In this document: positions 189 to 505 of the stretch, in pieces | Numbering within the stretch: position 1 is the first letter of the stretch | How the letters are laid out: every line of letters begins with the position of its first letter | Position numbers and translations under genes: made by a program | The notes under the pieces: generated by a model | Seen by the model: only the letters and a program-made list of their open reading frames with translations | Database searches by the model: none | What the model was told of the DNA's origin: nothing | Assembly (NCBI GenBank): GCA_043731575.1 | Contig: JAYTIW010000037.1 | Coordinates: 1 to 30,782 of the forward strand | DNA from: Minisyncoccota bacterium | Lineage (GTDB): Bacteria; Patescibacteriota; Minisyncoccia; Phycocordibacterales; UBA5272 | Direction: 5' to 3' | DNA length: 30,782 bases

Positions 189-261
189 GCGCGAATAGCT
201 CAGCTGGTAGAGCACTCGACTGATACTCGAGCGGTCCCAAGTTCGAATCTTGGTTCGCGCA
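189..261 (+). tRNA. trnI: tRNA-Ile (anticodon GAT), CCA not encoded
   Basis: Cloverleaf: acceptor GCGCGAA(189-195)/TTCGCGC(254-260), D-arm GCTC/GAGC, anticodon stem CTCGA/TCGAG with loop CTGATAC (GAT at 222-224), T-arm CCAAG-TTCGAAT-CTTGG, discriminator A261 followed by CAA. Confidence 0.95.
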
Positions 262-317
262 CAAAATATAAAATCCCGGAGGCAAGGCCTCCGGGATTTT
301 ATATTTTGTGCGCGAAC
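253..317. repeat. Perfect 30-bp inverted repeat that includes the tRNA 3' acceptor strand
   Basis: GTTCGCGCACAAAATATAAAATCCCGGAGG (253-282) is the exact reverse complement of 288-317; loop CAAGG. Confidence 0.97.
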
Positions 318-505
318 AGGAAATGAGCCTGCGCTGATTTCCGTCAAGATTCGAAAGTCCGGAGTATGCTCCCGATTTTTTAATTTGTACTCAACTTCTT
401 AAAATCGCAGTCCTTTAGGGTTTCGCTAGCAGGCGAAACGACGAGGAGCGGCCTGCGAGAAACTTTTGTGACGACAAAAGTTTATTTGTAGGAGAATCTT
501 GGTTC
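318..505. other. Highly structured tRNA-associated element (candidate ncRNA or MITE-like insert)
   Basis: Nested stems: GGAAAT/ATTTCC (319-342), GCTCC/GGAGC (368-372/445-449), CGATTTT/AAAATCG, GTTTCGC/GCGAAAC (420-439), AAACTTTTGT-GACG-ACAAAAGTTT (460-483). CAAGATTCGAA (345-355) is antisense to tRNA 242-252. GAATCTTGGTTC (494-505) is a direct copy of tRNA 245-256. Confidence 0.7.

What the first reader, a model, noticed from the sequence alone, without database searches (positions are those of the whole stretch)
242..505. tRNA-Ile is followed by a structured element carrying a split antisense copy and a decoy copy of the tRNA 3' end
Seen: bases 242-282 (T-loop, 3' T-stem, 3' acceptor strand, discriminator and trailer) are matched by 41 nt of exact reverse complement in two contiguous blocks. 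Block 288-317 pairs 253-282 and block 345-355 pairs 242-252; a 27-nt hairpin (318-344) separates them. At the far end, GAATCTTGGTTC (494-505) is a direct copy of tRNA 245-256 and can pair the same two antisense blocks. Between them lies a multi-branched fold. Inference: in a pre-tRNA transcript the antisense blocks could pair either with the tRNA, destroying the cloverleaf, or with the downstream decoy, releasing it. That would be a folding switch or a tRNA-mimicking mobile element. On the minus strand the element itself contains TTCGAATCTTG...GTTCGCGCA, a tRNA-like 3' end. An alternative reading is attL/attR scars of a tRNA-targeted element. An ordinary terminator does not explain the split 11-nt block or the decoy.
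Basis: partly seen in the sequence, partly recalled or inferred. Interest (0 to 1): 0.78.

Follow-up and report, generated by a model that had tools for sequence, protein, structure and literature searches.

The report
tRNA-tail insertion element with matched arms
Behind this tRNA-Ile gene sits one copy of a widespread small, protein-less, folded element of ultra-small (Patescibacteria) bacteria that I found in neither Rfam nor the paper library; it attaches to the ends of tRNA genes, carries a mirror copy and a spare copy of that tRNA's tail, and nothing yet shows how it spreads.

Summary
tRNA-Ile(GAT) occupies 189-262. A perfect 31-nt inverted repeat (253-283/287-317) and a perfect 11-nt one (242-252/345-355) are split by a 27-nt hairpin. 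A 12-nt direct copy lies at 494-505.

It is one member of a large family. The same architecture follows about 40% of 181 tRNA loci examined, with arms matched to each tRNA. A covariance model hits 100 of 151 genomes of the order and 1 of 150 elsewhere in the phylum. Rfam 15 and the paper library hold nothing like it. This scan has reported the family before, on other Patescibacteria DNA.

Core hairpins covary and keep invariant G.U pairs, so the tRNA-sense strand is the folded one. At tRNA-Ile-murB loci, sites are empty or hold different core types. The "decoy" adjoins the terminator conserved next to murB, whose left arm is deleted here.

No ORF is present, and no integrase, IS110, TnpB, Y1 transposase or RT is consistently found. 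Large serine recombinases do not track the element.

Best reading (about 0.5): a non-autonomous insertion element homing to tRNA gene 3' ends through a folded single strand. The folding-switch idea is not supported: the antisense arm captures the tRNA 3' strand in 30 of 30 predicted read-through folds.

The parts
189..262 (+). tRNA-Ile(GAT) gene, no encoded CCA
   Evidence: ARAGORN; Rfam RF00005 73.1 bits
242..262 (+). S1: working tRNA 3' part (T-loop, T-stem 3' strand, acceptor 3' strand, discriminator +1). It is the sequence repeated in antisense and sense further on
263..307 (+). A-rich trailer, GC-rich hairpin (275-283/287-295, loop 284-286) and U-tract. This is an intrinsic-terminator-like apex of the long perfect palindrome 253-317
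   Evidence: The tool's simple terminator scan did not flag it; terminator-like is my reading of the GC-rich stem and U-tract
308..317 (+). Anti-acceptor block GTGCGCGAAC, perfect complement of 253-262
   Evidence: the equivalent block is matched to each tRNA in other loci
318..344 (+). HP: hairpin with variable stem of about 9 bp and conserved CUGC tetraloop, flanked by A...GU. It sits at the acceptor/T-stem junction of the antisense copy
   Evidence: RNAalifold: 9 pairs, most with compensatory changes
345..355 (+). Anti-T block CAAGATTCGAA, perfect complement of 242-252
   Evidence: anti-T of 9/10 or better behind 70 of 181 tRNA loci
356..493 (+). Type-A structured core. It holds the AGUCCGGAGUAUG junction, hairpin 421-439 (UAGCA-type loop), the purine-rich GAGGAGCGG strand, and hairpin 454-490 closed by the conserved GCGAG/UUUGU motif with two G.U pairs
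   Evidence: 34 predicted pairs, 24 with compensatory changes; G.U at two positions in 12-13 of 13 sequences
369..419 (+). Nested 51-nt hairpin module (CUCCCGAUUU...AAAUCGCAGUCC), absent from most type-A copies. It occurs elsewhere as a core of its own
   Evidence: L284: sole core behind tRNA-Ile of G010
494..505 (+). S2 ('decoy'): truncated direct copy of the tRNA 3' part (T-loop end, T-stem 3' strand, first 4 nt of the acceptor strand)
   Evidence: full-length (13/13) in 33 of 70 units elsewhere
506..541 (+). Right half and U-tract of the terminator that is conserved directly upstream of murB in five genomes, followed by the short murB leader. The left arm and the rest of S2 are deleted here
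   Evidence: alignment A3
542..1591 (+). murB (UDP-N-acetylenolpyruvoylglucosamine reductase), the conserved downstream neighbour used to define orthologous loci
   Evidence: The murB name is my own reading of the translation; no family search was run on this ORF

Best explanation
Bases 263-505 are one copy of a multi-copy, protein-less insertion element family specific to the 3' ends of tRNA genes in one order of Patescibacteria, apparently undescribed in Rfam 15 and the searched paper library. Shown: each copy lies between the tRNA body and a second copy of the tRNA's 3' part. It supplies, in order, a hairpin that is usually an intrinsic terminator, an antisense copy of the tRNA 3' part (often split by a CUGC hairpin), a conserved structured core, and the second sense copy. 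The arms always match the resident tRNA, while the cores are shared between different tRNAs and genomes. Copies are gained, lost, stacked in tandem and truncated. Inferred: the element spreads as DNA, using a folded single strand of the tRNA-sense polarity (ssDNA of the non-template strand, or an RNA copy). In that strand the antisense and sense arms rebuild a duplex copy of the target's T-arm/acceptor region around the core. Host housekeeping functions carry out the insertion at or near the palindromic T-loop sequence TTCGAA. In this window the copy is old: its second sense copy and the neighbouring ancestral terminator have suffered a deletion. The strong terminator at 275-307 keeps the antisense arm out of most tRNA transcripts.
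For: Recurrence with matched arms: about 13 of 23 tRNAs in the own genome and 70 of 181 tRNA loci in five genomes plus extra loci, against 0-2 hits in upstream-flank controls per genome. Turnover at one orthologous locus, tRNA-Ile to murB: six loci lack the element, three of them with only a terminator in a 55-136-nt spacer (G011, G017, G047); the others carry type A, B+C, D+B+A or the hairpin-module core. The murB-proximal terminator is conserved whether it follows the tRNA itself or a decoy. Tandem arrays and identical triplicated units occur, as does a pseudo-site with only a tRNA fragment, and an older unit keeps the arms of the other tRNA-Ile allele. Structure is read on the tRNA-sense strand: there are many compensatory pairs and invariant G.U pairs in the cores, and diverged arm pairs are G.U 17-23 against A.C 4-6. 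DNA-level perfection of the S1/antisense palindrome: 624 Watson-Crick against 16 other pairs, with no strand bias; palindromes reaching into a gene end occur only at tRNAs. No ORF lies inside, and Rfam has no match. Distribution: 100 of 151 genomes of the order and 1 of 150 in the rest of the phylum. A read-through transcript would misfold the tRNA, which fits a terminator placed before the antisense arm.
Against: No mobilising enzyme was found. Each genome has a single tyrosine recombinase. Y1 transposase and RT are absent from complete element-rich genomes. IS110 and TnpB were not found. Large serine recombinases do not co-occur with the element. No excised, circular or empty-site form at strain level was seen. 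How arms get tailored to a new tRNA is unexplained. Some units persist at the same tRNA across species with compensatory evolution and an intact second copy (Gly-GCC type D), and some arrays lie inside the tRNA transcription unit with no terminator before them. Both points fit a functional RNA as well. The insertion point inside the repeated 3' part cannot be fixed, because the two copies are identical.
Confidence: 0.5

Rival explanations
1. The units are genes for tRNA-like RNAs. The antisense and sense arms form an acceptor-plus-T-stem minihelix, with the CUGC hairpin in place of the D/anticodon domain and the core in place of the T-loop. RNase P, RNase Z and the CCA enzyme would then cut the units out of pre-tRNA transcripts, and the released core RNA would act in trans.
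For: The arms close the element on its own. The hairpin sits at the acceptor/T junction. Units end at the discriminator position in 33 of 70 cases. G145 has a tRNA plus three units and a single terminator after the last one. There is sense-strand covariation with G.U pairs and long persistence at some tRNAs.
Against: Many units, including this one, follow a strong terminator and have no room for a promoter. Second copies are truncated in about half of the units. Which tRNAs carry a unit varies freely between species. The Rfam tRNA model does not see the units. No RNA run holding the element was available.
Confidence: 0.25
2. One reading: the element acts in cis. In the pre-tRNA transcript the antisense blocks pair either with the tRNA (blocking it) or with the decoy (releasing it), and this regulates tRNA maturation.
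For: Both pairings are possible in sequence. Where arms diverge they keep wobble pairing.
Against: In 30 of 30 loci the predicted minimum-energy fold of the full transcript has the antisense arm holding the tRNA 3' strand, with or without a full decoy. In this window the decoy covers only 12 nt. A terminator usually precedes the antisense arm. The same tRNA is with or without a unit in sister species. The test linking decoy integrity to lack of a terminator was inconclusive (odds ratio 2.0, p = 0.23).
Confidence: 0.07
3. The units are scars, attL-remnant-attR, left by integrase-bearing islands or prophages that use tRNA 3' ends. Such islands exist in these genomes.
For: Large serine recombinase genes overlap tRNA 3' ends in G023, G008 and G025, and one 5-kb island ends in a displaced tRNA-Ser tail. 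The decoy behaves as a displaced tRNA end.
Against: The island end shows no antisense arm or core. Units are uniformly 110-250 nt, with no gene remnants and with conserved covarying structure. 43 of 100 model-positive genomes lack the recombinase domain, and 37 of 51 model-negative ones have it.
Confidence: 0.08
4. The units are a mutational by-product: template switching at palindromic terminators and at the palindromic T-loop sequence copies flanks in both orientations around pre-existing hairpins, without any function or dedicated mobility.
For: The palindromes are near-perfect with no strand bias. Terminators in this genome are generally perfect palindromes. In G025 the trailer and terminator are duplicated together with the tRNA tail. 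No enzyme was found.
Against: Palindromes of 18 bp or more never extend into protein-gene ends. Conserved core families with covariation are shared across more than 90 genera. The CUGC hairpin inside the antisense arm is not explained.
Confidence: 0.1

Closest known systems
tRNA-gene-targeting integrative elements and their gene-less or satellite derivatives (CIMEs; tycheposon arrays of Prochlorococcus, bioRxiv 10.1101/2020.12.28.424599)
   Same: Inserted at the 3' part of tRNA genes. The working tRNA end is kept and a second, displaced copy flanks the insert. Several inserts can stack at one tRNA.
   Different: No integrase in the element and none that tracks it in the genome. Size is 110-250 nt. 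One core family serves many different tRNAs with arms matched to each. There is an added antisense copy and a covarying structured core.
REP/BIME, MITE and PATE-type small structured repeats (own knowledge of IS200/IS605-derived PATEs and RAYT-mobilised REPs)
   Same: Short, non-coding, hairpin-rich and multi-copy. One strand appears to be the folded, relevant one.
   Different: The terminal inverted repeats are copied from the target and are not constant. There is strict tRNA-end specificity. The Y1 transposase domain is missing from complete element-rich genomes.
Folded single-strand recombination sites: integron attC and the CTX phage (+)ssDNA attP hairpin used by XerCD (own knowledge)
   Same: Structure rather than sequence is conserved. 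Folding is strand-specific and tolerates wobble or mismatches. A hairpin rebuilds a duplex that resembles the chromosomal target.
   Different: No integron integrase is present, only one Xer-like recombinase whose involvement is untested. The target is a tRNA end, not attI or dif. The arms differ from locus to locus.
tRNA-like minihelix RNAs processed by RNase P and RNase Z (e.g. mascRNA-type tRNA mimics; own knowledge)
   Same: A 5' strand and a 3' strand form acceptor-like and T-stem-like helices that end at a discriminator position.
   Different: The T-loop is replaced by a core of 60-140 nt. The 5' strand is a perfect complement that extends past the discriminator. Expression is not shown.
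Bidirectional intrinsic terminators
   Same: 275-307 is a GC-rich hairpin with a complementary A-tract and U-tract directly after the tRNA.
   Different: A terminator does not explain extension of the stem into the tRNA, the split 11-nt block, the core or the direct copy.

Membership tests
tRNA-targeting integrative elements / CIME-like derivatives | Insert flanked by a direct repeat of the tRNA 3' part, with an intact tRNA kept | tested here: met
tRNA-targeting integrative elements / CIME-like derivatives | Cognate integrase in the element or elsewhere in the genome | tested here: not met
   No ORF in 263-541. One tyrosine recombinase per genome. Serine recombinase domain absent from 43 of 100 model-positive genomes.
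tRNA-targeting integrative elements / CIME-like derivatives | One element lineage uses one attachment site | tested here: not met
   The same core types lie behind at least 15 different tRNAs, with arms matched to each
MITE / REP-BIME / PATE | Short, non-coding, multi-copy, hairpin-forming | tested here: met
MITE / REP-BIME / PATE | Constant terminal repeats shared by all copies and by a parent IS | tested here: not met
   The outer inverted repeats are tRNA-derived and differ by locus
MITE / REP-BIME / PATE | Parent or helper transposase (Y1 TnpA/RAYT) | tested here: not met
   PF01797 found in 2 of 5 genomes only, and not in the near-complete (about 100% by marker genes) G023, G017 and G025
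RNA-guided recombinase systems (IS110 bridge RNA, TnpB omega RNA) | Cognate IS110-type or TnpB protein | tested here: not met
   PF02371 and PF07282: 0 of 5 genomes
tRNA-like structures (RNase P/Z substrates) | Acceptor-like plus T-stem-like helix formed by the 5' and 3' strands | tested here: inconclusive
   Formed in silico. Complete in about half of the units. In this window only 8+4 bp.
tRNA-like structures (RNase P/Z substrates) | T-loop and recognition by tRNA models | tested here: not met
   The T-loop is replaced by the core. RF00005 hits only the true tRNAs.
tRNA-like structures (RNase P/Z substrates) | Processed, CCA-tailed RNA exists | not testable with these tools
   No RNA run holds the element
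Attenuator-type RNA switch | Mutually exclusive pairings with comparable stability that gate an outcome | tested here: not met
   The antisense arm wins in 30 of 30 predicted folds. Occupancy differs between species.
Intrinsic terminator | GC-rich hairpin followed by a U-tract directly after the gene | tested here: met
   275-307. The simple terminator scan did not flag it; this is my reading of the sequence. It covers only part of the feature.

The most novel reading that the evidence does not exclude
A new class of homing element that needs no recombinase of its own. A folded single strand carries both a sense and an antisense copy of its target, which is any tRNA gene's T-arm/acceptor end. 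The element is inserted, and its arms re-templated to each new tRNA, by host replication/repair or tRNA-processing machinery. This would amount to a naturally re-programmable, protein-less insertion module.
Probability: 0.25. Interest if true: 0.9.

Novelty: categorically new. Interest (0 to 1): 0.78.

Why it matters
If the reading holds, an entire order of Patescibacteria carries 5-20 copies per 0.6-1 Mb genome of an element unlike any catalogued repeat, intron, integrative element or RNA family. It recognises tRNA gene ends, always keeps the tRNA intact, and carries target-matched sense and antisense arms without encoding any protein. Working out how the arms are tailored to each tRNA could reveal a new insertion mechanism, or a new class of tRNA-shaped RNAs. 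There are practical consequences too. The elements break short-read assemblies at tRNA genes: in this assembly several tRNA genes lie at contig ends, and Logan contigs break at the palindrome. They also create tRNA fragments and long palindromes that confuse annotation.

Tried and rejected
1. Known RNA families. Rfam 15 at gathering score (window and 24 loci) and at E up to 10 (180-560) returned only tRNA and spurious miRNA-hairpin matches.

2. Minus-strand RNA. Rejected, because the invariant G.U pairs would become C.A mismatches on that strand.

3. A general 'palindromes grow into gene ends' rule (scan note e1-5292697). Perfect palindromes of 18 bp or more reach into a gene only at tRNAs. 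The rsmI and DUF4015 cases in this window are different things: a CTAACAT microsatellite and a separate IR-flanked element.

4. Large serine recombinases as the helper. They sit at tRNA ends in several genomes but show no positive association with the element: 57 genomes have both, 43 the element only, 37 the recombinase only and 14 neither.

5. RT, Y1 transposase, IS110 and TnpB as helpers. Absent from complete element-rich genomes. The RTs are short and group-II/DGR-like.

6. Expression evidence.

7. Strain-level empty site. Logan contigs of a roughly 90% identical strain show 1.3 kb, rather than 243 nt, between tRNA-Ile and murB, but the sequence could not be read.

8. The pattern scan of genome contigs was too unspecific: mostly chance hits, and only 10 true loci.

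9. Decoy integrity against absence of a terminator: a trend only.

10. Literature. Four full-text searches found nothing that describes such elements.

11. Complex prediction, structure prediction and protein homology searches were not used, because there is no protein to test.

Full report
**What is in the window.** tRNA-Ile(GAT) lies at 189-262. From 253 a perfect 31-nt arm pairs with 287-317 across a 3-nt loop. The 11 nt before it (242-252) pair perfectly with 345-355. The two antisense blocks are separated by a 27-nt hairpin (318-344) with a CUGC tetraloop. GAATCTTGGTTC occurs at 245-256 and again at 494-505. The centre of the palindrome (275-307) is a GC-rich hairpin with a U-tract, which I read as an intrinsic terminator; the tool's simple terminator scan did not flag it. 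No ORF of note lies between 263 and the murB start at 542. The 31-bp palindrome is the longest perfect one in the 628-kb assembly. The region folds far better than shuffles (z = -12.5 and -5.0). The 12-nt direct repeat is not significant on its own, since an equally long chance repeat exists at 854.

**It is one of a family.**
- A search of the window's own genome with 263-540 found a second locus with the same layout behind a different tRNA, with both blocks changed to match that tRNA.
- Scanning all 23 tRNAs of the assembly showed the layout behind about 13 of them.
- It recurs in 19 of 24 sampled genomes of the genus by plain BLAST.
- It also occurs in a genome of another family of the order, with a related core.
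- Over 181 tRNA loci, 70 have an antisense T-block matching at 9/10 or better within 230 nt downstream. Upstream flanks used as controls gave 0-2 hits per genome.
- A covariance model of the CUGC hairpin, antisense T-block, last core hairpin and closing helix hits 100 of 151 genomes of the order (90 of 131 genera), usually several times per genome. In a phylum-wide sample it hits 1 of 150.
- MAG titles of true hits read Patescibacteria, Parcubacteria, Nomurabacteria or Paceibacterota.
- Rfam 15 has nothing for it, and four full-text literature searches found no description.
- Earlier notes of this scan describe the same family in other Patescibacteria windows. I treat these as leads only, but my independent results agree with them.

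**Anatomy of a unit, always in tRNA-sense orientation.**
1. The tRNA 3' part (S1).
2. A trailer and apex hairpin. This is usually a terminator and sometimes a GCGAAGC-type mini-hairpin.
3. An anti-acceptor block.
4. The CUGC hairpin, in most types.
5. An anti-T block ending in TTCGAA.
6. A core.
7. A second sense copy (S2) that starts in the T-loop.

Cores come in several related types. This window has type A, with a 51-nt hairpin module (369-419) nested in it. That module also occurs as a core of its own behind tRNA-Ile of G010, and upstream of tRNA-Ala between a direct and an inverted copy of that tRNA's 5' end.

**Which strand folds.** RNAalifold on 13 type-B and 13 type-A units finds 31 and 34 pairs, of which 18 and 24 have compensatory changes. 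It also finds two G.U pairs that are invariant in 12-13 of 13 sequences, in a motif shared by both types (GCGA/UUGU). Where antisense arms have drifted from the tRNA, the non-Watson-Crick pairs are G.U 17-23 against A.C 4-6. By contrast the S1/apex/antisense palindrome is almost perfect at the DNA level: 624 Watson-Crick against 16 other pairs in 23 loci, with no strand bias. Long palindromes that reach into a gene occur only at tRNAs.

**Polarity and turnover.** tRNA-Ile and murB are neighbours in at least 12 genomes of the genus, and the spacer ranges from 55 to 1379 nt.
- Six loci carry no element. In G011, G017 and G047 the spacer is just a terminator (55-136 nt); in G055, G007 and G008 it holds other genes.
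- Other genomes hold type A, type B followed by type C, types D+B+A, or the hairpin-module core.
- The terminator directly upstream of murB is conserved in five genomes. It follows the tRNA itself in G011, a full second copy in G053, and an imperfect one that keeps the acceptor strand in G013. In this window it follows the truncated second copy, and its left arm is missing (alignment A3).
- So S2 and what follows it are continuous with the ancestral downstream sequence, and everything from the new terminator to the core is the added material. Because S1 and S2 are identical, the exact insertion point within the repeat cannot be fixed.
- In G060 the downstream-most unit keeps arms of the other tRNA-Ile allele than the present tRNA.
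- Units also occur as perfect triplicates within one transcription unit (G145) and beside a mere tRNA-Gln fragment (G017).

Together these show repeated gain, loss, amplification and decay, which is the behaviour of a mobile or at least highly recombinogenic element.

**Search for a helper.**
- Each of five genomes has exactly one tyrosine recombinase.
- The Y1 transposase domain is found in two genomes and RT in three, but neither is in the complete, element-rich G023 and G017.
- IS110 and TnpB domains were found in none.
- Large serine recombinases are present, and several overlap tRNA 3' ends as parts of islands. The island end examined has no antisense arm or core. Across the order sample the recombinase domain is present in 57 of 100 model-positive and 37 of 51 model-negative genomes.

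No dedicated enzyme is apparent.

**RNA-level tests.** No RNA-seq run holds the element. Predicted minimum-energy folds of full read-through transcripts have the tRNA acceptor 3' strand captured by the antisense arm in 30 of 30 loci, regardless of decoy completeness (window). The decoy therefore does not rescue the tRNA at equilibrium. The terminator usually placed before the antisense arm looks like the feature that protects the tRNA. The trend for intact decoys where no terminator is present is not significant. The switch model is thus not supported, but kinetic effects cannot be excluded in silico.

**Conclusion.**
- Best reading (about 0.5): a non-autonomous insertion element that homes to tRNA gene 3' ends and depends on a folded sense-strand intermediate. 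Arm tailoring and the enzymes involved are unknown.
- Main rival (about 0.25): the units are tRNA-like minihelix RNAs cut out by the tRNA-processing enzymes. This is favoured by arrays inside tRNA transcription units and by long-lived units with intact arms.
- Scars of integrase islands, a pure template-switch by-product and the cis switch are less likely.

Whichever is right, the family fails the defining tests of each known kind that I considered.

Noticed in passing
window 369-419; L003, L004, L005, L007; L284: A hairpin module of about 50 nt (CUCCCGAUUU-stem-AAAUCGCAGUCC), with a covarying inner stem, recurs in many genomes of the genus. It is nested in this element. It serves as the only core behind tRNA-Ile of G010. 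Upstream of tRNA-Ala (G000 C25) it lies between a direct and an inverted copy of the tRNA 5' end, a mirror-image version of the 3' architecture.
   Followed up: partly
L323 11144-12769, L324 13104-14735, L325 9562-11073, L326 9938-11497, L328 2080-3561: Large serine recombinase genes (about 500-540 aa) run convergently into tRNA genes (His, Ser, Ser, Ala, Asn) and overlap their 3' ends by 13-63 nt. One island of about 5 kb ends in a displaced tRNA-Ser tail. tRNAs occupied this way lack the small element.
   Followed up: partly
G000 C53:5834-6478, C46:2319-2924, C15:2806-3417: Three short (324-366 aa) group-II/DGR-like reverse transcriptase genes in this 0.63-Mb genome. Two are on contigs that also carry tRNA-element arrays. 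RT is absent from G023 and G017.
   Followed up: partly
window 3409-3570: A run of about 11 CTAACAT repeats downstream of the rsmI-like gene. The repeat is complementary to AGATGTTAG at the gene's end, so the 'inverted repeat' noted there is a microsatellite effect.
   Followed up: no
window 5008-5156: A GC-richer insert of about 150 bp, bounded by a 25/27 inverted repeat whose left arm includes the stop codon of the upstream gene. It has a different core from the tRNA elements.
   Followed up: no
window 770-850: MurB carries a lysine/serine-rich low-complexity insert encoded partly by a CTACAGT tandem repeat. Logan word depth spikes there, which suggests a repeat shared with other organisms.
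   Followed up: no
G000 genome-wide: There are 60 perfect palindromes with stems of 14 bp or more in 628 kb, and terminators are generally perfect A-tract/hairpin/U-tract palindromes. Several share the stem CGGAGGCAAGACCTCCG.
   Followed up: partly
Read laying record 13 of run X3: A strain about 90% identical in murB has roughly 1.3 kb instead of 243 nt between tRNA-Ile and murB, including a piece like 399-423. The sequence was not retrievable.
   Followed up: no
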